Below are positions 2,323 to 61,100 of a DNA stretch of 64,000 nucleotides, piece by piece. The position numbers were made by a program, and so were the translations under genes. The notes under the pieces are model-generated. The model saw nothing but the letters and a program-made list of their open reading frames with translations. It did not search any database and was not told the DNA's origin. Numbering within the stretch: position 1 is the first letter of the stretch; each line of letters starts with the position of its first letter. The DNA is from Strigamia acuminata (lineage: Eukaryota): positions 5,518,001-5,582,000 of the forward strand of contig OX442314.1 in NCBI GenBank assembly GCA_949358305.1, given 5' to 3'.

Positions 2323-2324
2323 CG

Positions 2325-2342
2325 TGGGGGCCTGTCCGGGAT
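2325..2342 (+). promoter_or_regulatory. E1 primer-binding site, tRNA-Pro-like
   Basis: TGGGGGCCTGTCCGGGAT, 2 nt after the LTR; 16/18 match to the canonical tRNA-Pro PBS TGGGGGCTCGTCCGGGAT. Confidence 0.85.
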
Positions 2343-2414
2343 AGATTTGCTAACCTTAAGACAATACTTTAAATAATAACCGGGATCTTTCGATCGATCA
2401 TTATATCGTAAGAA

Positions 2415-9340: not shown

Positions 9341-9518
9341 AAACAACCACAGGGGGGACACCTGTTACGTCCCACAATGCGTCTTAATTGGCCAAACCAA
9401 TCAAAGATGACATGAGACTAATAGTTAACCTCTAACCCGACCCACACTTATCACTGTCATCTCCGACTAAGCAACGATCACCTCGAGACAGCCGTGAAAT
9501 CAAATTAGTTTCCGAAAA

Positions 9519-12500: not shown

Positions 12501-12628
12501 ACTTACGTTTCTACTTGAACGAGAGCGAAGACCCCTCGGACTACTCTTCAAAATTGACCACATCTCCCAACCTGGACGAACCAAGTTCGGAAGATAAGCC
12601 AAGTTACGCCGATAACTTGAAGAAATAA
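9519..12628 (+). CDS. E1 spliced third ORF, unknown function (~946 aa; exons 9519-9668 and 9938-12628)
   Basis: ATG at 9519 opens 50 codons ending at a GTAAGT donor. A 269-nt AT-rich intron ends TTTAG at 9937 and joins the long ORF in frame. Homologous to E2 ORF3. Confidence 0.75.
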
Positions 12629-12822
12629 TTAATTACATATTCATAACGAGAAGACTGTCTTCTCTAAAAAACCCTGAAATTATTTATGTATCAATTTCAA
12701 GAATGTAAAATATTTTGTTCATCATTCATCATTATTTAATAAAAAGATTATTTATGATTAAAGATACTGCTCCACCTTTATTTAAAGGGGGGGCCCCGAT
12801 GATTTATTCTCGGGGAGGGACG

Positions 12823-13453
12823 TGTGGTGATTCAGCATCACCTGAAGAAGTAATTAGCGGTGATTATTGTGTTACTAATACTCGCCACTAGAGCGCGCTA
12901 GAAATACCGACTAGACTGACTAGTCGCGTGTTTCTGCGAACCTGCATAATCAGAAGGATTTGCATATGACGTCATTTCCGGTTAATATATATAGCCAATG
13001 CTTGACCGGAAACGACACTACAGTTACCACATTTCAGCAAGAGCACCATTTACCTCACCTTTCAGGCCGTTTCACGGATTGATCGAGGACCGGTGCCCGC
13101 TGACCATTTCAACTGTACAACAGCCACATTTATTTAGCGTAGCCAATCTACGCTAGAATAAATATTCGAACGATATTCGTTTAATTCGCACGAGAAAGCG
13201 AATTCTCGCGTGTTCATAATAACACGTGGAAATACCCTAGACAACAAACATAGACCACGCGTAGGACTAAACAATTGGATCCGCCATTGTTTAGCGGCAA
13301 CTCGTATTCGCAGCCGAATCCGAGGACCAACACAGGAAACATCTTGACTTATATTTGTATTAGTAAGCGTGTTTTAATAAAGCAGTATTTGAAATATATT
13401 GTATTCCCGAGTGTATTATTTATTATCTTTAACCACAAAGTCGAATCACGACA
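12823..13453 (+). repeat. E1 3' LTR
   Basis: Follows the PPT; copy of 1692-2322. Confidence 0.97.
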
Positions 13454-26295: not shown

Positions 26296-27128
26296 GAAGT
26301 CCATTCATTTCGTCGCCATTCATTTCGTCGCCCCCGTACTTTTTTTTAATAAAGGCTGTGTTGAAAATTTTTTTTTCATTTCGTCGCCCTTATTTCATCA
26401 ACAAATCATTTCGTCGCCCTTTCATTTCGTCGCCCTATCATTTCGTCGCCATATCATTTCGTCGCCATGTCATTGTTGTGGCATTTCGCTAACTTGTGGC
26501 CAAATTCTGGCAAACTTGAGGCCAAATTCTGGCAAACTTGTGGCCAAATTCTGGCAAACTTGTGGACAAAATGTGGCCAAATTCTGGCCAACTTGTGGAC
26601 AAAATGTGGCCAAATTCTGGCCAATTTGTGGCCAAATTCTGGCAAACTTGTGGCAACATTGAGGCCAAATTGTGGCAAAATTGTAGCCAAATTGTGGACA
26701 AGATGTGGCCAAATTCTGGCAAACTTGTGGCCAAATTCTGGCAAACTTGTGGCCAAATTCTGGCAAACTTGTGGCCAAATTCTGGCCAAATTCTGACCAA
26801 ATTGTGGCAACATTGAGGCCAAATTGTGACAAAATTGTAGCCAAATTGTGGCAAAATTGTAGCCAAATTGTGGCAATATTGAGGCCAAATTGTGACAAAA
26901 TTGTAGCCAAATTGTGGCAAATGTTTCGGTTACTTAGGCGTATCATTTCGTCGCCGTGTCATTTCGTCGCCCTTCTGTTCGGTTTGGGTTGTTTTGGTTG
27001 TTCAACCGTATCATTTCGTCGCCCTTCATTTCGTCGCTCTTTTTACGTTTTGGGTGTCATTTCGTCGCCAAAAACGGCGACGAAATGACACGGCGACGAA
27101 ATGAAGGGCGACGAAATGAAGAAACCCC
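26296..27128. mobile_element. Foldback/MULE-like non-autonomous element with internal 11/22-bp minisatellite
   Basis: 8-bp TSD GTCTAAAT at 26288-26295 and 27129-27136; empty site at ~18005. Subterminal TCATTTCGTCGCC repeats, inverted at the right end. Core GCCAAATTCTGGCAAACTTGTG array at 26490-26922. Confidence 0.85.
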
Positions 27129-36132: not shown

Positions 36133-39100
36133 CGTGGGGGCCCGTCCGGGATAGACATTGTATAAATTTTGACAGTTAAAATTTACCCGCCATTTTTATC
36201 TTGCTTATCTTTCTTCTCTATCCTTTCTTTGTCTTCATTGAAAAATGGCGACTCCAGGCGAAAAGAGACCGAGAGGAAGGCCGGCGAAGAGACGAGTGGC
36301 GATCGATCTACCAGCCGTGGATCAAGAAGTGACTGAGTCACAAGAACTGTTTGAAGCCATGGATCAAACAGCTAACTGTAACTCGGCACAGTTAATCGTG
36401 AATGAATTCACGCAAGCGTTGGAGCGACAACAGCCATCCCCGCCCAGCGGCCAGTTGGACTTAAATAATCCAACTGGAAGTGGCCGTTCCAAGTCGCAAA
36501 ACGATGATTTGAATTTACGAATTCAATCATCAAGTGCAGAGCACTCGCTGAATTCGTCACCAGTTCAAGGTGCAGCACATCAAGATTCTGAGAATTCCAA
36601 CATGGAAGTTTCTCATTCTCCCGTGCGTGTCACCATGATGGACGCACTCCGTGAGCAAGCTAGGCTCGAGAGAGTAAAAGTCACTAGCGAAATGACTGTG
36701 GAACAAATCCACAAAGCTATGGTTCGCAAACAAAGTCGAAAAGACGTTGAAATCGTCAGAACAAGCTTGCAAGCAGAGTTCGAGCGAATGCATGCAGAAA
36801 TGCATCAGCAAAATGCCGAACTAAAACAACAAAGTGCGAATGATCATGTTAAGTTGTTAAATTTAGAGCAGGAAAAAGCTTCCTGGCTAATTACTAACGA
36901 AGAGCAGCAACAAAGGCTCGAGCAACTAAATCAAGCCCAAAAAGATTTAGAAATTGCTAATGATAATTTGAGATTGGCCAACGCAAATTTGCGAGAAGCC
37001 ACCACAAATTTAATGACTGCCGAACTAACCGCCCCAGTTCGAGCGAGGGAAGCAATCCCCTCTTCTTCTCGAAATTACGAGAATTATGCTGCAGAACAAG
37101 CAGCAAGAGCTAAGCGATTAGCACAACGAGAAAATGAAGTATTTCTCGCTCGACAGCAGTCTGTAATTGATGCTGGTCAAGCCGTGTGACGGTGACGACC
37201 ACAACTCCCATTTAACAATGGTACCGGGAAGAGATCGCAATAAATAAACAGTGAATACAATACGAGATAAATACAAGACAGTTTATTGTTGGTAAACAAT
37301 AATATCAAGGCTAAATTATACATAGGACTAATGCCGACATTTGGCAAGTTAAATCAGCTATTAAACTATACAAAGAATTGGCCAACTGGCCCTAGAATAA
37401 TATCACTACGGGTCTGGAATATGGGAGCGGTTTCCCCATCGCTCGACCTGATTATAGATGTCATCTTAAGCCGGATGGCTGTGTCCTGGAGTCCGATACG
37501 GCTTCGCTGGTTTCCTTGGTTCGCTGTGTAAACTATCGCACGTCGATAAATCGAATGATCTGAGCATTGCGGTTGACTTTGTCTGCACCGCCACAACTTT
37601 GGGAGGATATTGGTGTAAGTAAATGTATTCATTTACTTATCAATATTCCACTTATGAATTATATTTAATTCATATCGTTGTGAATTCTTATTTAGATATT
37701 TCGGGAATAAGTTGTCGTCAACTTATCGGTTATATTGAGTTCAATATGAGATTAAGTCTTCTGACTTGATTTTGGTCCAACTGGTTGTCGAGTTTAAGTT
37801 TTGCTGTTATAAATAAAATGAAGATTAAGCTTCCCGTCGCAACACACAATTGCCATCGATTAGAATATACGCCTTGCCATGCAGAACGGTATCAAGCGTC
37901 CCCGGCGTCGCAGCACGGTCGTCCATCGAGTGGTTGACGGTACCACGTACACAGGGGTCGATAGCTCGCGGCTCCGCACAGCAGTTTTATCTCTCGCGGT
38001 ACTAATAATAGACCGACTGCTTTGGCATCGAATACCATGAGAATCAGCTTGCCAAACACTTGGTGCTACTCGTGGTTACTGTAAAACAGACTGCTTTGGC
38101 ACCATCAGGTGAAGGAACCGATTCTCAACAATACCGATGCTACTCGTGGTAACGGAATACGTTCATACCGAAAAAGACAACTTGGTCCTGTCCGGAGGAT
38201 ACTGAATTGCACAACGGCGGGTTCTCCTTCGGCGTCGCAACCGTAAACTGTAACATTTATGCAACATAATGATCCCAGCACTTCGACTTCAATTGCCGGC
38301 GGTGGCATGATTCTGTAGAATCATGCAACGGTTCTTTGCGAATAAATCAACAAAGAACCAAAAGGTTTTTTTACGTGAACAACGAATCATATTTCTTAAG
38401 TAACAATACCAAACAGAAAATAATCAAACAGAGCTGCGGAATGGCCGATTGTTTGGGTTTATATAACCTGACTGGATTTAAGGATTAATCCAGTCATCCA
38501 ATTGGAACATGGGTTCCACGAATCCCTCCAATCCCGTATCACCGGAAGTGGATACGGAGGAGCATTTATGCAAATTATGCTAATCCTTGTTACAACCGGA
38601 ACTGGATACCCAGGACCGGAAATGGGTTCCACCAATCAGATTGATCGGTTGACCGATTGATCGCTAAACATTCTGTCCCGCAGAAATGGAAGTTACATTG
38701 TATTTAACAATGTCAGATATTTAATATATATTTATATTAATATTTAACACAATTTATTCACTTGATTAAATATACGTTTATATTTAATCATGAGGTTTTC
38801 AAGTTCGTATTCGAATTTATCGCTAATTGCGATCGCGCCATCTAGTGGCAATATGGAGCATTGACAAATGCGGGTTTTAGCAGACGAATCTTCGTAATTA
38901 TGCCGTGATACTTTAGTATCATGTGGAAATTAGTGTTTATTCTTAATAAACGAACATCTTTGTATTTGAAACATCATAAATGACTTTATTCTAGACATTT
39001 ATCAGTTTTACACAGAATATTGTAAAAATACCATCATATTGGCGCAACAGCGCTTTCTTGATAGAAAATAGGCATTTATAGCCATTGTAAACCGTCATAC

Positions 39101-39694
39101 ATCCCCCTTAATAACACAACTATATAATATTTTATAGAGTTTTCGTTATTCTCCTAATTAGCATAAATGCTATTTTCGGACTTGATGTATCTTGGAGATA
39201 CCGTGACTTCCAATTTCGAATTTGAGTTTACATAAACTAACTTGAATTATCTAAGTTCTGGATTTCTGCCGAAATAATCTTTTCTAATAGCCTAAATTCA
39301 AGTCCAGAATTTATTTCCAAGTCTTCTTTTTGAAGAAACTTTCGTCATACATAAAATCATCATTTGTGTTATCACAAAATATTTATTTCATATGCCTAGT
39401 CAGATGTATCGCTATAAATATACAATAAATAGCTTTTAGATGATAAGAGTTGACAATTTAAGAATCAAAATGTCCCCCTTAATTGTCATGACCGGAGTCA
39501 CTTGGTATTCTTTGTACAATTGACTAATTTTAATTTAAACTAGTTGTCTTTTAATACTGTAATATTACTTTTCGAGAATTGTTAATTTTAACTTTATATT
39601 TTGTCCCCTTTTTCTTTAGAAGAGAGGTCATGATTTTTAGAAGAGGATTTTCTGTTTACACTATAATCGGGGAATCTTTGTGTATCATATCATG

Positions 39695-41176
39695 TTAATC
39701 AACATGATTCTTTGCTAAATATTGAGCTCGCATATTTGCGAATTTCCGAGATCTCTCAGCCTGCTGTACTGATTTCTTTCGACGTTTTTCCTTTGGGCAG
39801 TTACATACAGTGTACTGACTTGGCAGTGTAAATGACCGTGACGACCCAACTTTTTGTTTTAGGTCATCTCTGGAAAACCATACATGAATGGGACCCTCAT
39901 TGGAAAACCATACGTGGAAAGGACCCATATTTGGAATTGTGAAATCCCGCAACAAACGAGGGGATCTATATTTGACTCTAAGTCGTGGAACTGATGATTG
40001 GAAACCTGGGTTTTCAGTCAGTTTTTGAACATGTTGGTTTGTACTTGAAGTTTCTTCATCACCAGCTGGACTTGGTGACCGAAAACGCTTTTTTGAAGTT
40101 CTTAATTCCTCTCGTTGAGATGAATTATTCTGGATATTGCAGGGTTGCTTTCCAGACGCAAATTGTTGTATCTCCGTCAGATTGACGACTGGGACGGGTT
40201 TTAGTCGTTGGTTACGGTATTGATTTCGAAATACGAATTGTTGCGCTTCGTTTATATTTTTAAATTCAGCTGAATTTAACTGGTATTGTTTACAATACTG
40301 TTCGAATTGATACCGGATCTCCCGTGGGTTAGTCAAAAAACTTTCTTTTTTAGGTTTAAAATCATTCTCATTATCGTGTTGGTAATACTTTTTCAAGGGA
40401 AAAGTTTGCTTGACCTTTTTTCGATTTGAAATGGGCGTTAGGTAGAATTGTCTTGGCTGGGGACTCTTCTTGGTAGACAAATCATACGTCCGCAAACATG
40501 AGTTTGTGATCGGCGATCGGGCACGTTGTTGTACGTTATTTGACTGCAAATGTTTGTTTGGAGTCCGAATATCTTTCCTTTGCATTGATATTGGTGGCCC
40601 AAAACTTTTGTTTACGGTTCCCAATTCTTTTGATAGCGGTAGGTTAATCGACAGATTAAGGCTAGCCACATATCGTTGTGCTTCAGCTGGATTAGCATAT
40701 CGAACTGAAATTAGCTGATCTCGATTGTAAACGAGTTTTAATTTGTTCTGAACAACCGACTGGTTAGTTAACGAACTCTCTGGACGAGAATTATTAGGTT
40801 TATAATTCTCTTCCCCCTTATCTACCGAATTAGGTGGTTTAAACTTTTCTAACTTAGATCCCCTACTGGATGTTTGAAACATAGTATGAGAATCTTGATT
40901 CACTAAGTTTCGGCTGTATGTTTGTGGATTCCGTACTGGATCTTGATGTGAAGATTGAGATTGGGTACGATCTCGCCAGTTCCTAGCTTTTACATAGTCT
41001 GAAGCTTCGATTATATTTTTAAACTTGGTTTTATCCAGTCCATGACGATTACAATACAGAGTAAAATGATCGGGAATCTTTTCTGTTTGATCGCCAAGTG
41101 GTACAGAACTTAAATTTAAGTTTGTCTGCTTATTATTTCCTTTTGGATCGATCATATTCAATGGTTTTTGAGCCAT
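39695..41176 (-). CDS. E3 orphan ORF (~493 aa from ATG), basic and N/Q-rich
   Basis: Uninterrupted 1.5-kb frame in very AT-rich DNA, with a twice-repeated motif F..YC....L....FKNI.EA..(Y/F)V and an upstream core promoter. Confidence 0.7.
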   Translation of the reverse strand: MAQKPLNMIDPKGNNKQTNLNLSSVPLGDQTEKIPDHFTLYCNRHGLDKTKFKNIIEASDYVKARNWRDRTQSQSSHQDPVRNPQTYSRNLVNQDSHTMFQTSSRGSKLEKFKPPNSVDKGEENYKPNNSRPESSLTNQSVVQNKLKLVYNRDQLISVRYANPAEAQRYVASLNLSINLPLSKELGTVNKSFGPPISMQRKDIRTPNKHLQSNNVQQRARSPITNSCLRTYDLSTKKSPQPRQFYLTPISNRKKVKQTFPLKKYYQHDNENDFKPKKESFLTNPREIRYQFEQYCKQYQLNSAEFKNINEAQQFVFRNQYRNQRLKPVPVVNLTEIQQFASGKQPCNIQNNSSQREELRTSKKRFRSPSPAGDEETSSTNQHVQKLTENPGFQSSVPRLRVKYRSPRLLRDFTIPNMGPFHVWFSNEGPIHVWFSRDDLKQKVGSSRSFTLPSQYTVCNCPKEKRRKKSVQQAERSRKFANMRAQYLAKNHVD

Positions 41177-41418
41177 AAAAAAATTCAAAATCTGACGATT
41201 TTAATTCTTTAATTTATAAAGAAGACGAATATAATACACTTTTCAACAAGAAACACTTCTAAACTTTACTTTTGACAAAATAAAATTAAACTTCGCGTTT
41301 GTTTGACACGTGTTAGCTTTTGCAGGTTACACGGCACACAAAATTCGAATCGTGACTGAAATCGGGACGGCGTGGTCAAGATGACTCTGGAACACGTCTT
41401 CTGGTCTGGTCTGGATGC

Positions 41419-41495
41419 GAATGATCAGTATCTGATCTGGTCCTCCTTTAATAGCAGGGGGCTGGGGATCCCTAGATCTCCCAACTTCTGATTGG
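41419..41495 (-). promoter_or_regulatory. Putative internal Pol II promoter for the E3 ORF
   Basis: Minus strand: CCAAT 41495-41491, TATTAAA 41453-41447, and Inr-like TCATTC whose A (41422) is 31 nt downstream of the TATA start. Confidence 0.55.
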
Positions 41496-44400
41496 CGGAT
41501 GTTAGTGTCGGCCAATGGTATAAAGGACGTTACATCTATTTAGTAGTTCTCTACTAAGTCCGTTCCCTTCGAGATTCAATTTTACCGATAAAATAAAATT
41601 CCTTCGGGAAGACATTCGTAAAATATTGTATTTTTCAAATGAAAATAAAATAAACTTACTTCAATCTTCTTGAACTTTGGGATTTTTACCAATCCAAATA
41701 ATTAAATAACTTTTCTTCAAAAAATATTTTTCTTTTAATTATTCCGTTAGTGTGTGATATCGTTACAACCACAACTTTTAATAAAGTTTTCTCAAACTCT
41801 CAATTTTTCTTATTCTTATTCAATTATCGTTCAAATAATCATTCCTTTGTAATTGAAATCTATTTTCGATTCCCAACATTGTGTATTCATTTCCAATAGG
41901 AAGAATAATTTGACCAAGTCTTTACTTTTTCGGGTTTAAATTCCATTTTTCGAGTGTGAAAAAATAAATTTTCACCATCCATCTCCCCCTTTTTTAACAA
42001 ATTTTTTTAACAAATAAAAATTCGTTAAAATTCTTTAAATTTGTTTTGCGAGAAAAATTATCTAATTCTCTAATCTTCCAAAAGAAAATATTCGAAATTT
42101 TACTTTAAACGATAAAGTTATTGGTACAAATGTGTACTTGTTTTTCGGGAGAAAACTATTCGACAATCCTTTAGACTTTTGGGTAAAAATTATTCATCAA
42201 ATCTTTCTTTTTTGATGACAATTGCTTTGATTTTTCGAAAGAAAATATCTAGCTAAATTCCACTTTTCCTGAGCGGACAATTGTTTTCACAATTAGTTAT
42301 TCCTTTGCGATATTTACGAAGGACGTGTCTTTGATTATTCGTTTTAATAATTTTCGTCCCCCTTATCTCTAATAACGAGATGTTTTTGCAGAGATCTTTT
42401 ATCTTTTGAATGAAAGAATATTTAAATCTCAATTGTCGTAAATACCTTCATCTGCTGCAGCATTTCCTCAATTTGAACTTTTCAAATGAAAAGACAAATC
42501 TGGAGAACTTTCACTGTCAAACTTCTATTCCTATCGCGCCAAAATTCGTAATTCACTGGTTTGGAATTCCGTATAACACGTGACACAATAACAGTATCGA
42601 TGTCACAATTAAGCAGTTTACTACTCGGTCCGCGCGAGGACATGTAAATTACTTTTTTCCGATAAAAATAATTTTTCTTTGAAAAATATTTGAAATTGAT
42701 TTTTCACAACTACTTTTGAATGAAATAAAATGAAGTTATTCCAACTTTTCGTTAATTGCTCACACATAACATTCCCTTTACTGTGGGATTTGCATCGAAA
42801 TTCCATTTTTAAAGAACCTTTCTTTTACTTATCGCAAATAAAACATATTCAATCGTTTTTCTGATTAAACTTTAACACGTAAATTACGAACGAAATATAT
42901 GATGACATTCCATTAACCTTTAGGAAAATTGACTAAATTCTTAATTTTTAGAGAAAAATAATGTATCTAGAATCTTTCCTTTTCCGAATAAAATCTATGT
43001 TCAAAATAGAAGATAAATCTTGTGCAATTCTTAGTTTTTTCGAATGGAAAAATACAACTTTTCATCAGCGGTGATTTATTTGATTTTTCCGAAAGAAAAA
43101 TAATTACTTTGAAACTTATTTTCTTCGTTTAAATCAGCTATCTGATTTTAAAGCTTCAATCCAATTAAAAAATATTCGCTCCGTAAATATTTCATGTGGC
43201 AAAGTTCATAGCCACAAATGGATTTGTTATTCCGGTTTTAAGAAATCATGTGGGAAAATGTCCGATTAGATTACTAAAAATATTCGTTGTTTTTCAAACA
43301 GCTAAATTTCATTTAGAAATTCTCAAAATTTGGGAGACCCAAATATCGTTGGAAACTTAAAACACTGTTAAATTTCCGAAAGGAAAGATTGAATGAAATC
43401 CTTTTACTTTTCCGAGGGAAAGCGTTTATCGTGATTCGTAACTTTCAATGTAAAAAATACTATTCTACGTGGTCGGCAACTTCATTCGCCGCCATTTTAT
43501 ATTTTCTTAATTTCCATTGTCCCGAAGGAAAAAATGTACTTTTTGTGAAAATAGTTAATTCCTTCAAATAAAGGTAATATTCATTTCGATTTGCAAATCT
43601 TTTCTGCGAAATGGAGTGTGTTGTTTTTCTCCAACAACTAAATTATCTTTGGTACCGATGGCAGTGGAAAAATTAGTTCGCGACACTTAAATAAATCTCT
43701 ACGAACCTTCTGTAACATTTCTCTGCTGTCTTTTATCTGTTGTCCGCCATAATTTCCAAGCATTCGTTCGCACCTTGCGTTGAAGGTTTGAGTAGCTTCC
43801 CTGCTGCGTTTGATACGGAGATCGACGCGTATTGCTATGGCGCGTGGTCGCTGGCTATCGGTGTCGACGTACAGTTACAAGAAACTTAATTTCTTGTAAA
43901 TATTTCCAAATAGTTGCGGTGTTTTCTTCGTTTTAACTTTTCAGGTGGAAAGATAAATTCGTAAGAAGTCCGCCTTCTAAACTTGTATGTTTTTAGCTTT
44001 TCGAAATAAAACAAACTTCGAAAAAAATATCTGTATTCTTATTTCACTCGAAACTTTTTTGATTTCTTATTTAAAATACTTCGTATTCCTTAAATTGTCG
44101 AACGAAAATAGTAAAGAGAGTTCACTAAACGTTTCCATTTCGTCAGTTTAACTTTTCACATGAAAATATAAACTGAAAATCTATTTGTCTGTTTTAACTA
44201 AAATTTTTTAGTTAATATCGGATTCAAGATTCGCTTTTGCAATTCGATCGAATTAATTTGCAACCTATTTCAGTGATCGTGTGATAGGTCTATAACTTCC
44301 GAAATTCCTAGTTAAAGGACTGTTTTGGTGTTTCTCAAGAAAATAAACATGGTTTGAAACTTGTCTGTTTTTTAACTAAATCTTTTAGTTAAATATTTAT

Positions 44401-44680
44401 CTCAAAATTCACTTTTACAATTCTATCGAATTTAATTGCAACCTAATCTCGGTGGGACCTCCACGTGTGAGATTAGGTGGTAGTCTTTGAAATCCCTAAA
44501 ATCTTCAAACGAAAATAATGAAGGAAAATCTACTACGTATTTCTATTTCATCAGTTTAACTTCTTCACATGGAAATATAAACTGAAAATTTAATCTGTCT
44601 ATTTTTAACTTAAATCTTTTTGTTAAATATTTATCTCCAATATTCACTGTTGCAATTCAATCGAATTTAATTGCAACCTA

Positions 44681-44698
44681 ATCTCGGTGGGACCTCCA
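44681..44698 (-). promoter_or_regulatory. E3 primer-binding site, tRNA-Gln
   Basis: TGGAGGTCCCACCGAGAT on the minus strand, 2 nt after the LTR; matches the 18-nt tRNA-Gln PBS. Exact second copy at 44446-44463. Confidence 0.9.
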
Positions 44699-47600
44699 CG
44701 TGTGACGGTGACGACCACAACTCCCATTTAACAATGGTACCGGGAAGAGATCGCAATAAATAAACAGTGAATACAATACGAGATAAATACAAGACAGTTT
44801 ATTGTTGGTAAACAATAATATCAAGGCTAAATTATACATAGGACTAATGCCGACATTTGGCAAGTTAAATCAGCTATTAAACTATACAAAGAATTGGCCA
44901 ACTGGCCCTAGAATAATATCACTACGGGTCTGGAATATGGGAGCGGTTTCCCCATCGCTCGACCTGATTATAGATGTCATCTTAAGCCGGATGGCTGTGT
45001 CCTGGAGTCCGATACGGCTTCGCTGGTTTCCTTGGTTCGCTGTGTAAACTATCGCACGTCGATAAATCGAATGATCTGAGCATTGCGGTTGACTTTGTCT
45101 GCACCGCCACAACTTTGGGAGGATATTGGTGTAAGTAAATGTATTCATTTACTTATCAATATTCCACTTATGAATTATATTTAATTCATATCGTTGTGAA
45201 TTCTTATTTAGATATTTCGGGAATAAGTTGTCGTCAACTTATCGGTTATATTGAGTTCAATATGAGATTAAGTCTTCTGACTTGATTTTGGTCCAACTGG
45301 TTGTCGAGTTTAAGTTTTGCTGTTATAAATAAAATGAAGATTAAGCTTCCCGTCGCAACACACAATTGCCATCGATTAGAATATACGCCTTGCCATGCAG
45401 AACGGTATCAAGCGTCCCCGGCGTCGCAGCACGGTCGTCCATCGAGTGGTTGACGGTACCACGTACACAGGGGTCGATAGCTCGCGGCTCCGCACAGCAG
45501 TTTTATCTCTCGCGGTACTAATAATAGACCGACTGCTTTGGCATCGAATACCATGAGAATCAGCTTGCCAAACACTTGGTGCTACTCGTGGTTACTGTAA
45601 AACAGACTGCTTTGGCACCATCAGGTGAAGGAACCGATTCTCAACAATACCGATGCTACTCGTGGTAACGGAATACGTTCATACCGAAAAAGACAACTTG
45701 GTCCTGTCCGGAGGATACTGAATTGCACAACGGCGGGTTCTCCTTCGGCGTCGCAACCGTAAACTGTAACATTTATGCAACATAATGATCCCAGCACTTC
45801 GACTTCAATTGCCGGCGGTGGCATGATTCTGTAGAATCATGCAACGGTTCTTTGCGAATAAATCAACAAAGAACCAAAAGGTTTTTTTACGTGAACAACG
45901 AATCATATTTCTTAAGTAACAATACCAAACAGAAAATAATCAAACAGAGCTGCGGAATGGCCGATTGTTTGGGTTTATATAACCTGACTGGATTTAAGGA
46001 TTAATCCAGTCATCCAATTGGAACATGGGTTCCACGAATCCCTCCAATCCCGTATCACCGGAAGTGGATACGGAGGAGCATTTATGCAAATTATGCTAAT
46101 CCTTGTTACAACCGGAACTGGATACCCAGGACCGGAAATGGGTTCCACCAATCAGATTGATCGGTTGACCGATTGATCGCTAAACATTCTGTCCCGCAGA
46201 AATGGAAGTTACATTGTATTTAACAATGTCAGATATTTAATATATATTTATATTAATATTTAACACAATTTATTCACTTGATTAAATATACGTTTATATT
46301 TAATCATGAGGTTTTCAAGTTCGTATTCGAATTTATCGCTAATTGCGATCGCGCCATCTAGTGGCAATATGGAGCATTGACAAATGCGGGTTTTAGCAGA
46401 CGAATCTTCGTAATTATGCCGTGATACTTTAGTATCATGTGGAAATTAGTGTTTATTCTTAATAAACGAACATCTTTGTATTTGAAACATCATAAATGAC
46501 TTTATTCTAGACATTTATCAGTTTTACACAGAATATTGTAAAAATACCATCATATTGGCGCAACAGCGCTTTCTTGATAGAAAATAGGCATTTATAGCCA
46601 TTGTAAACCGTCATAGCCGCCAAAAGTCAAAGCACTGCAGAGCAGTTATTACGTGCTGACTTAGCTGCGCAAGCTCGTGAAAATGAGATTCTTCGCGCAG
46701 ATCTATTGACGGTGCAAGAAAACTTTGCAGTAGTCGTACAAAAAGTACAGGACGTGTGTGGCGAAGATAATTTTGCAAAGCCAGCCCCAGTTTTGCAAAA
46801 AGGTGCTTCCAAATCACCTGAGCTGATTGATTTAACATCAGCTAAACCAAAAGTCAGCCGACAATCAAGTTGGACTGACAGTGATGACTCACGCAGTAGT
46901 CGTGGAAGCCGAAACAGTCATCACAGTCGCAAAAAGCGAAAGCGACAGCCGGACCCGACCGAATATCATTCCCCAAAAGTTCCGCAAAATTCGGATCGAT
47001 TCTTTAGCAATAGCGACCAATTAATTGGATTGCTGGCGAAAAAGAATAAAGAACGTGAGAAACCACACGATCGTGGACGCACGCACAATAATCCGCGAGA
47101 AGGCTCACCGAAACGTGATTGTCATAACGACATCCGTGAGGGGCCGAGATACCGTGGAAATCCACCAGGTGGCGACCCACCAGGTGGAGATAGTTCAGAT
47201 GGACATGGAGGTGGCCACTCACGTGACCACAATTCGAATGGCAATCGAGGTGGAAGGGGACCACCAAATGGAGACCGTCGTCCGCCAGATGGCGACGATC
47301 CTCCGGACCCTGATCCGCCGCCAAATCCGAATCATGAATCTGCGTCAGATACAGATTCCTCACACCCCAGTGTGAGAGGGCGATCTCGTCATAGAACGCG
47401 TGGGAGAACTCAAAGACCCGATTTCTACACGAAAGATGAGATTGACCAGTTGTTGAGGCAAAATGCTCAACAACAGCGAAAAAACAGAAGGGATAAAATT
47501 ATTTTGCAAAAAATAAATGAATTTACTTCTGATAAATGGACTCATCAAACAACAGATGAAAAGTTCATTAGATGGGATCGAGTTATCCCACATGCCTATA

Positions 47601-51600: not shown

Positions 51601-52940
51601 GAACTCGAAGAGTTTATACCTGGAAAGGTATGAAATGTGATATTACACGTTTTATTCAACATTGTCAAGGATGTCAGGCCTGTAAGCCCAGATCAAAGAC
51701 AGAAATAGAAGGCGCTCAATTAGGACCATTTGGACCATTTGACTGCCTCAGTGTGGATTTGTCTGGTCCCAAACCGAGAACCAGGAGAAACAATACCCAC
51801 ATTTGCGTCATCGTAGATGTCGCTACACATTGGCCCGAATTATTTCCAATGTGTAATCCCACGGCAATAAAAGTTGCCAACACAATTTATCACTTATCAA
51901 TGACTTTTGGATTTCCGAGACAAATTATAAGTGATAATGGACCACAATTTCGATCACAGGTCTATAAAGAATTTTGCAAAAAATTCAGTATGTCGCGAAC
52001 ACCGACATCGATTTATCATCCACAAAGCAATCCTGTGGAGAGAACCAATCGAGATATTAAATATTTAGTTTCGATTTATTTAGATATTCACGACCAATGG
52101 GATGAGTATCTACGCGAATTCGCATTCAGTTTAAAAACAACTGTAACAAGAGGCAGAGATTATTCTCCAGCTTTCTTAAATTTCTTTAAAGAATTAAGGA
52201 TTTCTTGGGATCCAAGAATTCCAGAAGGAATTTTGGTTATTGACCCAAAAAATCCGCATTTATATGTTCAAAAATTAGAAGCAATAATTGCAGAGACGTA
52301 TCAACATATGATGTCTCACGTCTTAGATTTGAGACGCCGTATCGAAGCTGAAAAATCAGACAAAAAATTCGATAATTTCAGACAGAATGATTTAGTCTGG
52401 CGAGAGTCTCATATTCTCTCAAATGCCGCTAAAGGAATAGCAGCAGGCATTTCACCGAAAAGGAATGGGCCTTATGTAATTGTCAAAAGGTTACAAGGAG
52501 GCGCCTTTCAACTTCGACGGCTGAGCGATAATAAAAATTATCCAGCCGTTCACGGCACCGAATTAACGCCGTACTTTCCCGTTTTCAACCAAGAAATTTG
52601 GCTGGAAGGGGAGGAAGTGGGTCAAAAAACAAAAAATATTGTTAATACCTTGGATGATGCTGAATTATCCAAAATTCCTGTCGAAAACACGGAATCGAGT
52701 GAAAAATCGAAACTCAAAAATAACGAAGTCGATGAAATAAACAAGCGACTTGAAAATGTTTCTCTTGATGAAAATCTAGAAAAGGAAATGTTTTTAGAAA
52801 AAGAAAAAATTTCAAACAATTCAGGAAATAACTCATCTGACATTGGAGACGATGCAGATGACAATCTAAACAAGTTGGATTGTACTTCGCGAAAGTCAAA
52901 GTACAACTTGAGATCTCGCGTTCCGCGAGCCAAGACATAG
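48691..52940 (+). pseudogene. pol: E2 pol with a 1-bp deletion at ~49842
   Basis: MLDSGA, YLDD, RNase H and integrase motifs. GGA-TGCGG lacks one A relative to the GGA ATG (G-M-R) of E1, splitting ORFs 48724-49857 and 49842-52940. Confidence 0.9.
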
Positions 52941-55337
52941 CGTTGACTTTCACCTTTTGGGTTTACCCAAAAAAGATCCGAGAGAGCAATCTCGTGACGT
53001 CATTCGTAGTCCACACTCGAATGACAACGTTCACAATGCGTTATAATTTGTGACGTCATTCGGTGTCACCGAAACAAGTTCGTTTCTCCAATCAACGAAC
53101 TTAGCCACTTTTCCGATAAGTTTTGAAGTGGATGCATCGACTCCGATACAGCACGACAGTTTTTCTTGATTCAACAAACTGTAAGTAGTTTTTCTGAAAG
53201 AAAAATTTGATAAATATATTTAATATAATTTATTAATTCTTTCTAGCCGAAAGAATTTCTTTTTCGACGCGAAAAAGAAGGAGAATGGCAGACGACCAAG
53301 TCAACCTCCATGCGGACGAAGAAATGCCGCTGGAAGGGGCCAACAACGAGGCCCAGCTAACGTTGCAAGAGAGGGTAAATTATTAAAATAAATTTTACCA
53401 AGTGTTTAAGTCAGAAAAATTGAATAATTTCACTTTTCCTGACTTCAAACACAAGCCGCTAAAAAATAAAAATGGCGGCTATAAAAGTCACGTGCTTCAA
53501 GCATGTGCGAAGGGAGTTGCCATGACAACCAACATCCCTTAGTGGCTCACGGCCACAAGCGCTAAGCTTAAAAAATATTTCAAATAAGAAATTATTTGTT
53601 TATTTTTAAAATAAACTAATTTATTTATTTTTTCTTCGAATATAGATCGAGAGAATTTTGCAAAAAATTCAGTATGTCGCGAACACCGACATCGATTTAT
53701 CATCCACAAAGCAATCCTGTGGAGAGAACCAATCGAGATATTAAATATTTAGTTTCGATTTATTTAGATATTCACGACCAATGGGATGAGTATCTACGCG
53801 AATTCGCATTCAGTTTAAAAACAACTGTAACAAGAGGCAGAGATTATTCTCCAGCTTTCTTAAATTTCTTTAAAGAATTAAGGATTTCTTGGGATCCAAG
53901 AATTCCAGAAGGAATTTTGGTTATTGACCCAAAAAATCCGCATTTATATGTTCAAAAATTAGAAGCAATAATTGCAGAGACGTATCAACATATGATGTCT
54001 CACGTCTTAGATTTGAGACGCCGTATCGAAGCTGAAAAATCAGACAAAAAATTCGATAATTTCAGACAGAATGATTTAGTCTGGCGAGAGTCTCATATTC
54101 TCTCAAATGCCGCTAAAGGAATAGCAGCAGGCATTTCACCGAAAAGGAATGGGCCTTATGTAATTGTCAAAAGGTTACAAGGAGGCGCCTTTCAACTTCG
54201 ACGGCTGAGCGATAATAAAAATTATCCAGCCGTTCACGGCACCGAATTAACGCCGTACTTTCCCGTTTTCAACCAAGAAATTTGGCTGGAAGGGGAGGAA
54301 GTGGGTCAAAAAACAAAAAATATTGTTAATACCTTGGATGATGCTGAATTATCCAAAATTCCTGTCGAAAACACGGAATCGAGTGAAAAATCGAAACTCA
54401 AAAATAACGAAGTCGATGAAATAAACAAGCGACTTGAAAATGTTTCTCTTGATGAAAATCTAGAAAAGGAAATGTTTTTAGAAAAAGAAAAAATTTCAAA
54501 CAATTCAGGAAATAACTCATCTGACATTGGAGACGATGCAGATGACAATCTAAACAAGTTGGATTGTACTTCGCGAAAGTCAAAGTACAACTTGAGATCT
54601 CGCGTTCCGCGAGCCAAGACATAGCGTTGACTTTCACCTTTTGGGTTTACCCAAAAAAGATCCGAGAGAGCAATCTCGTGACGTCATTCGTAGTCCACAC
54701 TCGAATGACAACGTTCACAATGCGTTATAATTTGTGACGTCATTCGGTGTCACCGAAACAAGTTCGTTTCTCCAATCAACGAACTTAGCCACTTTTCCGA
54801 TAAGTTTTGAAGTGGATGCATCGACTCCGATACAGCACGACAGTTTTTCTTGATTCAACAAACTGTAAGTAGTTTTTCTGAAAGAAAAATTTGATAAATA
54901 TATTTAATATAATTTATTAATTCTTTCTAGCCGAAAGAATTTCTTTTTCGACGCGAAAAAGAAGGAGAATGGCAGACGACCAAGTCAACCTCCATGCGGA
55001 CGAAGAAATGCCGCTGGAAGGGGCCAACAACGAGGCCCAGCTAACGTTGCAAGAGAGGGTAAATTATTAAAATAAATTTTACCAAGTGTTTAAGTCAGAA
55101 AAATTGAATAATTTCACTTTTCCTGACTTCAAACACAAGCCGCTAAAAAATAAAAATGGCGGCTATAAAAGTCACGTGCTTCAAGCATGTGCGAAGGGAG
55201 TTGCCATGACAACCAACATCCCTTAGTGGCTCACGGCCACAAGCGCTAAGCTTAAAAAATATTTCAAATAAGAAATTATTTGTTTATTTTTAAAATAAAC
55301 TAATTTATTTATTTTTTCTTCGAATATAGATCGAGAG
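51970..55337 (+). repeat. 1684-bp tandem duplication inside E2
   Basis: 51970-53653 matches 53654-55337 (integrase 3' half, ORF3 promoter region, first exons and introns); 2-bp AG microhomology at the junction. Confidence 0.92.
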
Positions 55338-57606
55338 GGATCGAGAAACGCCGTTTGCGCTCCCCGATCATGTGCCGACCCAGCACCCGCTGATTTTTCG
55401 AGCGGCGTTGCCCGAAAAAATTAGACGCCTGAAGACGGCAAACAACACGTGGTGGAAGTTGCGCCACGACTTCTCGAAGTCCGTCCTGCAAGGTCTTGGA
55501 GCAAAAAGCCGGTTCATCGAGCGCCTTCACGTCGACGAAATCGAGTGGACGCTCGACGAGAGCCCCCCAGGACCACTAGCTGCCGAGCTGCTGCACAACC
55601 AGTGGCCAGTGACGCCCCGAGAGCGTCACGAGCGCAGAAGAGTGCTCAGGAGTACTGGAATTAATTACGGTGCTCTCAACCAAGTGAGGAAAAACCTCAA
55701 GACGACTCAGCGAGAGGTCGTACAACGGTACCGCAAGTCCGTTCGTGACGGGAACCCGCAATTTCCCGCCACACAAACCGAGCTCCACCAGTTGGCGCTC
55801 GCCGGGTGTTTTAATGACTTTCCGGGATTTTTCCCGTCAAAGGCACTCAAAGCTGCCGCTGTGCAGCTTCTAGTCGATGAAAATCGACAGCTCGTGCGAG
55901 AGAGAGAACTCGACGAGCAAGCACGATGTGCTTTGCCATTCTTCCGAGAAGATGCGCTACCGGCCCCAGCGGCCAACAATCCTCCGCCGCAAGACGAGGA
56001 TTTGAGGGTGGGGCAACTCCCTCCGCCGATTCCAGTCCGACCGATGTTCCGCGAATCGAGCCGCGATCGAGAAGAGCGAAAGAGGCGATCGCGCCCATAT
56101 TCGACTGACGCACCACCACCACGCCCGCAGTCGCGACGAGGACGGACTCCAGAGTCATTCGGCTCGTCGTCTTCGTTAAGCTTCGAATCGGACTCCACCT
56201 TCAAGTCCGCACGAAGTAGCCGAACCGCCTCCACGTTCAAAGTGGACAACCCAGCTACTCCATACGCCATGAGACGTGTCGTCGGTGATATCTCTCCCGA
56301 CTGTAGCGTGCCTGTACCTGGACACGCTAGCCGCTTGCCCGAGCATGGATATGCTCCCCGCTTGCCGGCTGGAGTTAGCAACCTGCAACTCCGGCCATTT
56401 TTCAGTGAGTCATTCGGACCACAATGGACCTGCTACGAGCAGCAGCCCATTAGAGCGCAGCAAGAAGTGCTTCAAAAGCTGGACGCGTACCAAAGCGCCC
56501 AGATCGCCGAGTCGCAGAAGGACTGGCAGAGACTGGCTGAAAGGCTAGAACTCTCCGACATCAAGACCATTGATGATCCCCGTCTGATGGACTTTCAGCG
56601 TCAGCTAATTCCGGGGATGACTAGGGTGTTGTACCCTGGTGTTCTTCCTTCGCCAGGACAGGCGTTAGCGGCCATTACTTACCTTTGGACCGCCCCGATG
56701 GGCCTGTCGGAGAAGAAAGTCGAGCTGTGGTACTACATCCGGCTCGACCCGCCTACGATCTTAGCCGAGCTAATTAAGCAAGTCGTAGCTAACGGCGAGA
56801 CCGAAGAAGAGGCCGCCGTTCGGTTGCGAACCGAGTGGTCCTTTGCGAAGGCCACGGCGCAAGCGACCGGGAAAACACCGCTCCCGGTTACGAGCGCCAC
56901 AGCAGCCTCGTCACTAGCTGCTTTTCAGTCGGCCCAAGAAGGCGCTGGATGCTCGTTTTGGCAGGAGAACCCGAGAAGTTCTCAAACTCCAGCCGGAGTT
57001 CAACGGGTAGTCGAACCCCGTAAGCTCCCCGGAGTTGGTCGAGCGCAGGGACGAGGCGTCACAACCTCGTCAACCTCCGCACCCGCGTTGGTTTTCATGG
57101 GCTCGCCGAGCCATTTCGACGATGCCACGACGGAAGATTCGCGACCGCCGCCACCGCATCCACCAGCCAAGCCGGAGAAGACGGTTAAGCCGCTGAAGAA
57201 AGAGTCGGCTTTCAAGACTCTGATGCGCCTGTATCCACACTTCTATTTGACGCCGGATACGCGAACACTGCTTAGCAACAATCACAAGTTGTCGAGGCAG
57301 GTGTTTATGTGGCTCGAAGACCACATTCGGGTGTTAAGCCCACCATCAGTGCTCCACGACCGACTCCTGAGAGCACGATTGGCGCCAGAAGATCCGATAG
57401 AGTTTGCGGCGCTAGGATTTTTCAACCGAGCGAACTCGGCAAGAATCATTCAGGTTTGGCTTCATGTCAACCCTGGAATGGTCTCCGGACCAAACGCAGG
57501 TCGCGACCTGTGTATTGTTAACGAGCGGTCCAATCCGAGGGACGACGCCACGGATATGATGCGCCCGTTGACGCCTGAGCGAACTCAGAGCATGGACGAA
57601 TCATAA
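54969..57606 (+). CDS. E2 spliced third ORF, unknown function (~788 aa; exons 54969-55058 and 55330-57606)
   Basis: 30-codon exon ends AGG|GTAAAT; a 271-nt intron ends ATAG at 55329; in-frame join. A further 66-nt GT-AG intron (54865-54930) lies in the leader. Homologous to E1 ORF3. Confidence 0.75.
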
Positions 57607-58197: not shown

Positions 58198-61100
58198 TGT
58201 AGCAGAGGAGGAGGAAATTAGCTCGGAATTACGAGCGGAAAATCGAAAACGGAGTCGGAAAACGACTCGCAGAGTGCTCGCAAATACTCGCTCGCAGAAT
58301 ACTCGCGCCGAAAACGTTTCGAGCAAGATACGGCCGTGCACAAGCACTTATATGCCGTGGAATGATGCAAATAGCATATACAAATAATAAAATGATTTAA
58401 TATAAACGAAATATCTTACATAGTGGTCCAAAGCATGTTGGGAAAGAGGATGGGCAAGCAACAACATGTGCAGCGCCATCTTGGATTCAAGAGAGTGTGA
58501 GAAGCGACACTTTGTGTCGCAATACAACATTACAAATTAGGAAAATAGTCAAAGTAACTTCCAAAACTAACAAATGCATGGTGCCTCATGCTAAAATACA
58601 TAAACAATGACTAAATGACCAAAATATGATAAACAACTTAAAAGATCGGTAAATAAGCGATAATTGAGAAATACACTGGGAAAATGATAATTCAAGCCGA
58701 ATCTATCTTACATTGACCACAAACACGGTCCGTAGACCAACAAATCCCCCCTTCGATGTAAATAGGTTCGGGGAAATACAGAACGGGTACTGGAATTACA
58801 GTGTGTTACGAGAAAATATAAACAATAAAGTTCGAATCATCGAGCCGGGTACTGTCATTGAAAAAACTCTACGGAAGCCCGAATATTCCCACTGGAACTC
58901 GATGATCCTCGATGTCGGGTAAATAAATTAGGAATGTCGATAATTTTAGAGTCGGAAGATTCGCGAGATGAGTGATCGAAGTCGTTCCGAACCGAGCCAC
59001 TTGGTGAATATGTCGGCGACGTTGAGGTCGCCGGGCACTTTCTTGAGTTCGAACTGTCCCGCCGTATACCACTCCCGAAGCCAATGGAATTTGACGCGAA
59101 TGTGTTTCGTCTTGCTGTTCTCGATATCGTTCGCGGTGAATTGGATAGCAGCAAGCGCGTCGGAGTAGATAACGGGACAAGAAATCGGACCTAGCATCGG
59201 GCATTCAGAGTAAACATGTCGGAGCCAATAAAATTCTTTAACTGCATCGACAAGAGCGAGAAATTCAGCTTCCATTGTCGAGCAAGCCACTGTGGTCTGT
59301 TTTCGGCAGGTCCATCCAATTGGCGTTTGTCCGATGTAACAAATAAAGCCTCCGAAGCTAAGCGATGTAGCGCTGTCCGATGCCCACGATGCGTCTGTGT
59401 ATCCCCACAGTCGTCCAGTAGAACATCCCGATAATTCAATGCAATAGTCGATGGTGTTCGAGACGTACTGCAACACTTGAAGCAAAGCTTTGATGTGGGC
59501 TTGCGTATAACATGTGTTGAATTGCGAAAGGGATATCACTGAGTACAGGATGTCGGGACGAGTTCGAGACGCTAAAAACAGCAGCGACCCGATAAGGGAC
59601 CGGTACGGGAAGTCGATCAGGTTCTCTGTCGGTCCTCTTGTGAGCATTGTTCCCGGAGTAACTGGAACTTTGACGAGATTATTGGTAACAGTGCCGAACT
59701 TCTTGATAATCTTTGCGATGTACATTCGCTGGCTGATGAACGTTTTGCCAGCGTCACGAATGAATTCAACGCCGAGCAATTTCGCGATGGGACCCAAGTT
59801 GACGATTTGAAACTTGGTGCTGATCAAAGCGATGAGTCGATCGAGGACGGAGTCGGTAGCGTAGAAAAGAACGATGTCGTCCACGTAGACCAGCATTAAA
59901 GCAGAAGTCCCAAAAATGTACACGCAATTGCATCCGGGAAGTTTGCGAAATCCGAGAGATCGAAGCGTCTCGTCGAGCTTTTCAAACCACTGCCTTCCCA
60001 ACTGGTGCAAACCGTAGAGCGATTTTATAAGGAGCCAGACGTTGTTCGGGTGTGTACAGGTTGCCCCAGCCGGGATGCGCATGTACACCTTATGCTCGAG
60101 CTCACCATAAAGGTAAGCGCACTTCACATCAAGATGTGCGTCTTTCCAACCTCGGAGAACGACGAGCAAACAAAAGAACATCCGGATGAGTACAAAGTTC
60201 ACTACGGGGCTGAAAACCTCATCGTAGTCGACGCCGAGAGTTTGTCGGAAGCCTTGAGCAACAAGGCGGGCACGGTAACGAGTAATCTTGCCGGCGGCGT
60301 CGGATTTCAATTTGAAGATCCACTTGCACCCGAGGATCGTTGTGTCGGGCGGCTTCGGTACTTCGACATAAACCTCTCGTTCCTCAAAAGTCCCGAGTTC
60401 CTCTGCGATCGCTTCTCTCCACTTCGGAGCATCGTGAAATTTTGGAATTTCGGCGAAAGATGCGGGTTCCGTCCGACACAGATGAGCCGCATGTCTGGCA
60501 GGGATCGTAGGCGTAGTATATTCAATACTGCCAAAGAAAAAGAGTTCCGGATTATATTCGAGATGATTAAATTGACAATATTTCTCGATGTCCCCGCGTG
60601 AACGTAGTCGCACATCCGGTTCCGGGAAATAATATACATCGGTGTCAATTTTCCCGGGTCTCTGATCCTTTCTGAGGTGCTCTTCACGTTTCCAACCAGC
60701 ACATGGCGAATCTCCTCCGATATATCTCCACATAAAAGCTGTCTGTCTGGCAGTCGTTGGTAATACCTCGGTACCATGAAGTGGAGCTGGAGACATGGGT
60801 CCTGCACCGAAAACTGGAATTGTGTGTTGAAGAACAGAAGTACCCATTGTTCTTCGCGTAGTCACAAATCTGCTTGGGGAGCCCGGTTGGGATAACGGGG
60901 GCGAGGTTTGCGGTGAAGTTTGAGGTGACACATGAGGAGAAGTATAGTTAGACATAGGCACAAGGGAAACTTCGTCTATATCATCAACGTCACGATCCGT
61001 GTCATCACCCAGATTACTATCGGAGCTTGGCAATCTCAAAGCACACGCCTCTAGAAGTTGTCGTTCGGGTGTCAGGAATTGAGCAGATGCAGCTGAGCTC

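What the first reader, a model, noticed from the sequence alone, without database searches (positions are those of the whole stretch)
37185..46615. 9.4-kb LTR element with no gag/pol but its own orphan gene
E3 has apparently identical 1.9-kb LTRs and a clean 4-bp TSD, so it moved recently, yet it encodes no recognisable Gag, RT or IN. It shares cis grammar with E1/E2 (CA-CG-TGG junction, GGGGGATG PPT as in E2, 4-bp TSD) but uses a different primer (tRNA-Gln). Its only gene sits before the PPT with an apparent internal promoter, the same slot as ORF3. The LTRs are rich in hairpins (e.g. 38305-38326, 38469-38496). Inference: a satellite or parasite of this Gypsy lineage that contributes or exploits a trans-acting protein.
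Basis: partly seen in the sequence, partly recalled or inferred. Interest (0 to 1): 0.7.

Follow-up and report, generated by a model that had tools for sequence, protein, structure and literature searches.

The report
Gag/pol-free retrotransposon keeping own orphan gene
A recently inserted, many-copy jumping element in an animal genome shows no trace of the usual capsid and copying genes but keeps one intact gene of no known family behind a promoter-like sequence of its own, so it likely borrows another element's machinery while likely supplying its own regulator.

Summary
Confirmed. E3 (37185-46615, minus strand) has identical 1,915-bp LTRs, a GCCG target duplication, an 18-nt tRNA-Gln primer site (present twice), a polypurine tract and one 493-codon ORF behind a CCAAT/TATA/initiator-like motif. 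BLAST, Pfam and seven purpose-built Gypsy profiles find no gag or pol trace; the leader and part of the spacer are the element's own duplications. Three public runs hold the same interior, ORF included, at depths suggesting tens of near-identical copies in two, a few in the third; one also holds diverged relatives with frame-keeping changes. So it is a family, not a one-off deletion. The protein is basic, largely disordered, has two 35-residue two-helix repeats and no homologue in any search; purifying selection is not shown (8 synonymous, 16 non-synonymous). E1/E2 share the junction grammar and a promoter-led accessory-gene slot, but differ in primer, termini and most of the LTR, so the helper is unidentified. 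Best reading: a LARD-like non-autonomous Gypsy derivative that kept its accessory gene, probably a family-specific nuclear regulator. This scan noted pol-less LTR elements with orphan ORFs in other genomes. New variant of a known kind.

The parts
44701..46615 (-). 5' LTR, 1,915 bp, termini TA...CA; TATA-like TATATAA at 45981 (U3 about 660 nt, inferred)
37185..39099 (-). 3' LTR, identical to the 5' LTR; AATAAA plus T/G-rich tract at 37287 (inferred R about 1.15 kb, U5 about 80 nt); 9 perfect hairpins
46616..46619 (.). target-site duplication GCCG (copy beside the 5' LTR)
37181..37184 (.). target-site duplication GCCG (copy beside the 3' LTR); the site lies in the gag ORF of element E2
44681..44698 (-). 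primer-binding site 1, 18 nt complementary to the tRNA-Gln 3' end, after a 2-nt CG spacer
44446..44463 (-). primer-binding site 2, perfect copy preceded by an LTR-end mimic (TCACA-CG)
44085..44705 (-). triplicated leader (units about 235 and 180 nt apart; 91% and 78-80% identical; third PBS decayed)
41561..44100 (-). AT-rich (30% GC) spacer without long ORFs or gag/pol remnants; holds old self-duplications (43990-43890 ~ 42530-42430 is the best supported) and PPT-like tracts at 42364 and 41991
41420..41516 (-). predicted internal Pol II promoter: two CCAAT boxes (41516, 41495), TATTAAA (41453), initiator-like TCATT with +1 at 41422, 31 nt after the TATA
   Evidence: only match of the pattern in the window; pattern written after seeing the site; activity untested
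39695..41176 (-). orphan ORF, 493 aa, pI 10.1, S/N/K/Q/R-rich, no hydrophobic segment, basic clusters near residues 365 and 467
40961..41095 (-). two-helix repeat 1 (residues 28-72)
40202..40336 (-). two-helix repeat 2 (residues 281-325); model pLDDT 84
39100..39109 (-). polypurine tract abutting the 3' LTR; further PPT-like copies at 39480, 39610 and 40819

Best explanation
E3 is a recently inserted, multicopy LTR retroelement with no detectable gag or pol that likely moves with capsid, reverse transcriptase and integrase borrowed from an unidentified Ty3/Gypsy helper, and likely keeps its one gene because the product is a regulator specific to its own family. Steps. Shown: intact LTRs, PBS, PPT, TSD, no gag/pol trace, same interior in many copies. 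Inferred: a transcript of about 8.7 kb runs from the TATA in the 5' LTR to the AATAAA in the 3' LTR, is packed by a helper's Gag, primed by tRNA-Gln at PBS 1 (this copy's LTR ends at the first junction, not the second) and by the PPT, and is integrated with a 4-bp duplication after a 2-nt trim, as the CA-CG-TGG and PPT-TG spacers suggest. Inferred: it descends from an element built like E1/E2 (gag, pol, then a promoter-led accessory gene before the PPT) whose gag-pol was lost long ago and replaced by self-duplicated spacer. Speculative: the basic, disordered two-repeat protein is made from the internal promoter, goes to the nucleus and binds E3's own LTR DNA or RNA to raise its transcription, stability or loading; a helper with another LTR could not supply that, which is why this gene rather than gag-pol was kept. 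Odds: non-autonomous multicopy family 0.9; Gypsy-type helper 0.8; ORF functional 0.65; family-specific nuclear regulator 0.4.
For: Structure. No gag/pol: tblastn with 9 proteins of E1, E2 and the Copia element gave best E 0.17; seven profiles (CA, PR, RT, RH, three IN parts; 8-82 sequences each) over six frames with stops as X gave best i-E 0.5, no better than the reversed control at 0.31. Multicopy: in X1 four interior contigs of 293-560 nt with 0-1 differences have depth 8,982-9,972, over ORF and spacer alike, against 46-330 for the lowest-depth listed contigs; X2 42,480; X3 207-247 against 18-32. LTR indels that are polymorphic among contigs (38417/45933, 38477/45993, 38872/46388) have the same state in both LTRs of this copy, so the identity reflects a recent copy event. 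Relatives in X3: a contig 88% identical over 204 nt of the ORF with no gap, whose start codon joins the ORF in frame after a shortened N-terminus; two more joints inside the ORF skip 66 and 39 nt; the 12 indels listed (of 68) all lie outside the ORF; no stop among 24 listed substitutions. E1 and E2 accessory genes start soon after the pol stop and have a phase-0 intron in frame with the long ORF. Protein features. Precedent for a family-specific accessory regulator: VANC of VANDAL transposons (PMC6719617, passages).
Against: No helper found: no genome is held, the window's E1/E2 use another primer and other termini, and collection scans for the junction found 0. Purifying selection is not shown: 8 synonymous and 16 non-synonymous among the 24 ORF changes in the 40 rows displayed of 244, against an expected synonymous share of 22-34% (P 0.13-0.62). 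One X3 ORF-spanning contig has a gap whose position was not displayed. Letters between the 66- and 39-nt joints are not known. The promoter regions of E3 and E1/E2 do not align above chance (P 0.59 and 0.83). No homologue or fold supports a regulatory function. Contig depth is not a copy number by the tool's own warning, and the library type of X1/X2 is not on record.
Confidence: 0.6

Rival explanations
1. Same non-autonomous family, but the ORF is a passenger: a captured host or viral gene (or an old accessory gene) that rode along in a very recent burst and does nothing for the element.
For: Synonymous excess is not significant; copies are so young that an intact frame is expected anyway; in X3 the promoter/5' UTR piece is far deeper (2,457 at 41325-41415) than the 3' half of the ORF (215), so many relatives lack or have a much diverged ORF. 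Transduction by LTR elements is known (maize Bs1, PMC7264820).
Against: An 88%-identical relative keeps the frame and an in-frame start; listed indels avoid the ORF; no host homologue among 1.84 billion representatives; the slot and promoter layout parallel E1/E2's accessory genes.
Confidence: 0.25
2. The ORF is a highly diverged Gag, making E3 a Gag-only element like zebrafish Bik or chicken ENS-1, whose orphan ORFs were recognised as capsids mainly through structure.
For: Precedent in PMC12067270; my full-length model is single-sequence and poor (pLDDT 41), so it cannot exclude a fold.
Against: No Pfam Gag or zinc-knuckle hit, capsid profile best i-E 11 and hhalign probability 0.5%; the ORF lies 3.5 kb downstream of the PBS behind its own promoter-like motif; composition is disorder-like with only two short helical hairpins predicted.
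Confidence: 0.08
3. E2 (or E1) itself is the helper, and E3 is a true satellite with unrelated LTR and primer, as VL30 is to murine leukaemia virus.
For: Shared CA-CG-TGG junction, PPT and 4-bp TSD; weak R/U5 similarity with E2; VL30 uses Gly, Pro and Gln primers and is packed by MoMLV (PMC4859993); E2 is abundant in all three runs.
Against: Termini differ (E3 TATGACGG...CCGTCACA; E1/E2 begin TGTGGTGA); E3 depth relative to E2 differs more than tenfold between X1 and X3; nesting in E2 shows only a shared neighbourhood. This rival concerns the helper only and is compatible with the rest of the best explanation.
Confidence: 0.25
4. A single-copy deletion product or an assembly artefact.
For: The window also holds an exact 1,684-bp tandem duplication in E2; no listed contig spans the whole element.
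Against: High, even depth over the whole interior in three runs of two studies; no gag/pol remnants; clean TSD and PBS/PPT.
Confidence: 0.03

Closest known systems
LARDs (large retrotransposon derivatives), as defined in PMC4350172 Introduction; the non-coding non-autonomous families of Culex in PMC3286476 (passages)
   Same: Over 4 kb, long LTRs, PBS and PPT kept, no gag/pol, repeats in the interior, no master copy identified.
   Different: LARDs and the 38 Culex families are described as lacking coding sequence; E3 keeps a 493-codon ORF with a promoter-like motif.
Gag-only non-autonomous elements: plant TR-GAG (PMC4350172, abstract and Introduction), zebrafish Bik-1/2 and chicken ENS-1/ERNI (PMC12067270, passages and section 9)
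   Same: Young, multicopy, pol-less LTR elements with a single ORF, moved in trans.
   Different: Their ORF is Gag; E3's shows no Gag signal and sits in the 3' accessory slot; TR-GAGs are under 4 kb.
Non-env ORF3/aORF accessory genes: bdelloid Vesta/Juno/TelKA (PMC5408684, passages), plant Retand/Grande/RIRE2 (PMC11963269 passages; PMC7264820 part 1 of 3)
   Same: Family-specific extra gene between pol and the 3' LTR; regulatory role proposed for TRP28; some Retand clusters and TelKA2n are non-autonomous yet keep the extra ORF.
   Different: Those non-autonomous forms keep part of gag/pol; Retand aORFs are mostly antisense; E3's gene is sense, unrelated in sequence, and the only gene left.
Mouse VL30 (PMC4859993, passages)
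   Same: Non-autonomous, 4-bp TSD, tRNA-Gln among its primers, packed by a helper.
   Different: Retroviral lineage, decayed gag/pol remnants, no intact typical retroviral ORF.
VANC of VANDAL DNA transposons (PMC6719617, passages); foamy-virus Tas made from an internal promoter (recalled, no call)
   Same: Model for the proposed role: an accessory protein acting only on its own family.
   Different: No sequence or fold link; no binding motif array of the VANDAL kind found in the spacer; analogy only.

Membership tests
LTR retrotransposon, non-autonomous | Paired LTRs, TSD, PBS, PPT | tested here: met
LTR retrotransposon, non-autonomous | No RT/RNase H/integrase coding capacity | tested here: met
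LTR retrotransposon, non-autonomous | Amplified as a family with the same interior | tested here: met
   contig depth and near-identity in X1, X2, X3; rough, not a copy count
LTR retrotransposon, non-autonomous | Identified autonomous partner | not testable with these tools
   no genome held; 0 hits
LARD | Longer than 4 kb with PBS and PPT, no gag/pol | tested here: met
   9,431 bp
LARD | Internal region has lost coding capacity | tested here: not met
   493-codon ORF, beyond chance
TR-GAG / Gag-only elements | Shorter than 4 kb (TR-GAG) | tested here: not met
   9,431 bp
TR-GAG / Gag-only elements | The single ORF encodes a capsid (Gag) | tested here: inconclusive
   no sequence-profile signal; full-length model too poor to judge; repeat-domain fold search best Z 4.2
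Ty3/Gypsy (Metaviridae) | RT phylogeny and PR-RT-RH-IN order | not testable with these tools
   E3 has no pol; E1/E2 meet the order
Ty3/Gypsy lineage of E1/E2 | Shared cis signals (junction, PPT, TSD length, LTR ends, primer) | tested here: inconclusive
   junction, PPT, 4-bp TSD and a weak R/U5 match shared; primer and termini differ
Env-like ORF3 | Signal peptide and transmembrane segment | tested here: not met
   highest 19-residue Kyte-Doolittle mean 0.75
Accessory ORF3/aORF | Extra ORF just upstream of the PPT, present in most copies | tested here: met
   (depth over ORF equals depth over spacer in X1)
Accessory ORF3/aORF | Expressed as its own transcription unit | not testable with these tools
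   promoter-like motif only

The most novel reading that the evidence does not exclude
E3 represents an undescribed class of animal satellite retroelements: the accessory-gene cassette of a Gypsy lineage, with its own promoter, has become an independent mobile unit that outsources all of gag-pol and encodes a new two-helix-repeat nucleic-acid-binding protein that selectively activates, protects or loads its own RNA; relatives share the promoter but carry fast-diverging or swapped cargo, and the family has burst recently in some host lineages.
Probability: 0.3. Interest if true: 0.78.

Novelty: new variant of a known kind. Interest (0 to 1): 0.55.

Why it matters
Pol-less LTR elements described in the papers I read either code for nothing (LARD, TRIM, VL30) or keep Gag. 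An element that drops Gag as well but keeps a non-Gag accessory gene isolates what such accessory ORFs are for, an open question for plant aORFs and animal ORF3s: whatever the protein does must benefit a genome that cannot pack or copy itself. With many near-identical young copies, a clean predicted promoter and lineages of high and low abundance, it is a directly testable case of a transposon-encoded self-regulator in an animal.

Tried and rejected
Whole genome: none held. Homologues of the ORF: 0 in the word-indexed search, 0 among 1.84 billion representatives, 0 with the repeat profile on longer proteins (only 19 candidates, weak), no usable ESM Atlas hit for whole protein or repeat, 0 in metagenome contigs, 1 chance PDB hit at E 0.51, no earlier finding by sequence or place. 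Fold searches of the repeat: best Z 4.2 (bHLH-like arrangement), Foldseek E above 2; my recalled guesses (SAP/LEM/Rho-N helix-extended-helix, RNase H1 hybrid-binding domain, capsid helix) were neither found nor excluded. Small ORFs in LTR and spacer: no Pfam hit below E 0.05 in 7 tested. Rfam and tRNA scans: 0. No RNA holder listed. Short-motif array or periodicity in the spacer: none clear. Homology of the internal promoter to E1/E2 promoters or LTRs: not above chance. Spacer as decayed copy of the ORF: only a 50-nt DNA match around a PPT-like tract; protein scores within null. Two of the three proposed spacer duplications passed empirical controls (0 of 26, 0 of 16) but were not recovered by nhmmer, and all were picked after the fact. 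The crude splice scan (weights recalled) found no strong donor in E3. Junction pattern scans: 0 in metagenome and viral contigs. No complex prediction was sent, as no partner is claimed. Literature: 10 searches listed no animal element with exactly this layout; subscription papers and Repbase are not covered, and no supplement was read, so prior description is not excluded.
Full report
Setting. The window is from an animal (tandem ASC/ENaC-family genes) and holds nested LTR elements: E1 (1692-13453, Gypsy order PR-RT-RH-IN), E2 (from 35169; its 3' LTR is cut at 58197 by a Copia element) and E3 inside E2's gag. The RT-RNase H region of E1 is at most 46% identical to the 120 proteins listed, so this is a divergent lineage. 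No genome is held.

Observation. E3's LTRs are 1,915 bp with 0 mismatches; E1's have 0 of 631 and E2's 4 of 539. The TSD is GCCG. The element reads on the minus strand: LTR (TA...CA), CG, an 18-nt tRNA-Gln PBS (PMC1592299 and PMC12217144, one passage each; PMC3564811 calls the same 18-mer Thr), interior, GGGGGATG, LTR. TA...CA termini are known from tomato TARE1 (10.1101/137141, passages). In the LTR a TATATAA at position 635 and an AATAAA at 1813 suggest an unusually long R of about 1.15 kb and a genomic RNA of about 8.7 kb (inference). Hairpins are enriched (9 against 0.55) but also in E1 and E2.

Interior. The first 600 nt are three copies of the leader, two with a perfect PBS, the second preceded by TCACA-CG. 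As this copy's LTR ends at the first junction, it was primed at PBS 1 (inference). The next 2.5 kb are 30% GC with no long ORF. tblastn with nine neighbouring element proteins (best E 0.17) and seven profiles built from E1, E2 and fetched relatives (best i-E 0.5; reversed control 0.31) find no gag or pol. Some of the spacer is self-duplication: 43990-43890 matches 42530-42430 (0 of 88 controls; nhmmer E 0.007); two longer matches passed small control sets but not nhmmer. AAGGGG occurs 6 times on the sense strand and 0 on the other (simulated mean 0.82, max 4 of 300). At 41516-41420 lie two CCAAT boxes, TATTAAA and an initiator-like TCATT 31 nt later, the only match of that pattern in 64 kb (pattern made after seeing the site). 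The ORF starts 246 nt further on and stops 595 nt before the LTR.

Protein. 493 aa, pI 10.1, rich in S, N, K, Q, R, no hydrophobic segment, with basic clusters. Residues 28-72 and 281-325 share 13 of 45 positions (score 73, max 70 in 1,000 shuffles) and fold as helix-loop-helix (pLDDT 84); the rest is predicted low-confidence and mostly coil. No search found a relative or a telling fold.

Family. Three of six listed runs hold the element; four were laid. In X1, interior contigs of 293-560 nt with 0-1 differences have depth 8,982-9,972 over ORF and spacer alike, while the lowest-depth listed contigs have 46-330; X2 shows 42,480; X3 207-247 against 18-32. E2 single contigs have 5,403-7,015 in X1 and 2,593-3,122 in X3, so E3 relative to E2 is over ten times higher in X1. 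The tool warns that depth is no copy number, X1/X2 library types are not on record, and I assume that the low-depth contigs are single loci; the reading is tens of copies in one study, a few in the other. X6 covered only 8 of 30 bins. X2 and X3 show uninterrupted E2 at the insertion site. In X3 an 88%-identical relative covers 204 nt of the ORF with no gap and joins its own start codon in frame; two other joints skip 66 and 39 nt; the 12 indels listed of 68 are all outside the ORF; one ORF-spanning contig has an undisplayed gap. The 24 ORF substitutions among the 40 rows shown (of 244) are 8 synonymous, 16 non-synonymous, none a stop: not different from neutral. The promoter/5' UTR piece is about ten times deeper than the 3' half of the ORF, so more elements share the promoter than share this ORF version.

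Relation to E1/E2. Both have an accessory gene starting shortly after the pol stop, with a short first coding exon and a phase-0 intron in frame with the long ORF, and a weak shared C-terminal region (E 4e-4) that E3's protein lacks. E3 shares the junction, PPT and 4-bp TSD, and its poly(A) region matches E2's better than any of 348 controls, which may partly be signal composition. Primer, termini and promoter sequence differ. I read this as common descent, not proof that E1 or E2 is the helper.

Mechanism. Most likely a Gypsy helper packs, copies and integrates the RNA; the retained gene likely supplies a function that a helper with another LTR cannot, such as activating or shielding E3's own promoter or RNA. 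This last step is inference from layout, composition and the VANC precedent (PMC6719617, passages); the foamy-virus parallel is recalled. Rivals are a passenger ORF (0.25), a cryptic Gag as in Bik and ERNI (0.08; PMC12067270, passages and section 9) and an artefact (0.03).

Comparison. It works like a LARD but fails the non-coding criterion; it is not a TR-GAG (PMC4350172, abstract and Introduction). Non-autonomous elements that keep an extra ORF exist (TelKA2n, some Retand clusters) but keep part of gag/pol. PMC12477816 (passages) added only Gag-only Copia families. Ten searches listed no animal element with this exact layout; coverage is limited and no supplement was read. Earlier notes of this scan describe pol-less LTR elements with orphan ORFs in fungi and Euglena (unchecked). 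Verdict: real, new variant of a known kind, interest 0.55.

Noticed in passing
window 58946-63856 (-), residues 1053-1108 of the Copia polyprotein: Between integrase and RT lies a methyl-CpG-binding-domain-like segment (PF01429, E 0.0076, 16.3 bits, below the curated cut-off of 21): a possible chromatin-targeting module in a Copia element.
   Followed up: partly
window 9519-12628 and 54969-57606 (+): The accessory genes of E1 and E2 look like spliced genes with own promoter-like sequence after the pol stop (CCAAT; TGACGTCA twice in E2), an acidic first exon and a phase-0 intron, longer than the plain ORFs; they share a weak C-terminal region without Pfam match.
   Followed up: partly
window 51968-55337: Exact 1,684-bp tandem duplication in E2 covering the integrase end, the accessory promoter and its first exon; real or an assembly artefact.
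   Followed up: no
window 21329-22280: Older solo LTR, 77% identical to E2's LTR, with a 4-bp flank pair differing at one base.
   Followed up: no
window 9350-9410: A PPT-like G tract directly after E1's pol stop and before the accessory promoter, as if the promoter descended from an old 3' LTR.
   Followed up: no
window 41325-41600: In run X3 the promoter and 5' UTR of E3's gene are shared by many more contigs (3,061 summed depth at 41384, 14 contigs) than the ORF; loose ends at 41387 and 41423 point to other elements using this piece.
   Followed up: partly
window 268-34000: Tandem array of ASC/ENaC (pickpocket-like) genes serving as the landing site of these elements, with an 11-bp-period repeat at 26429-26960 and an inverted-repeat element at 19227-20011.
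   Followed up: no
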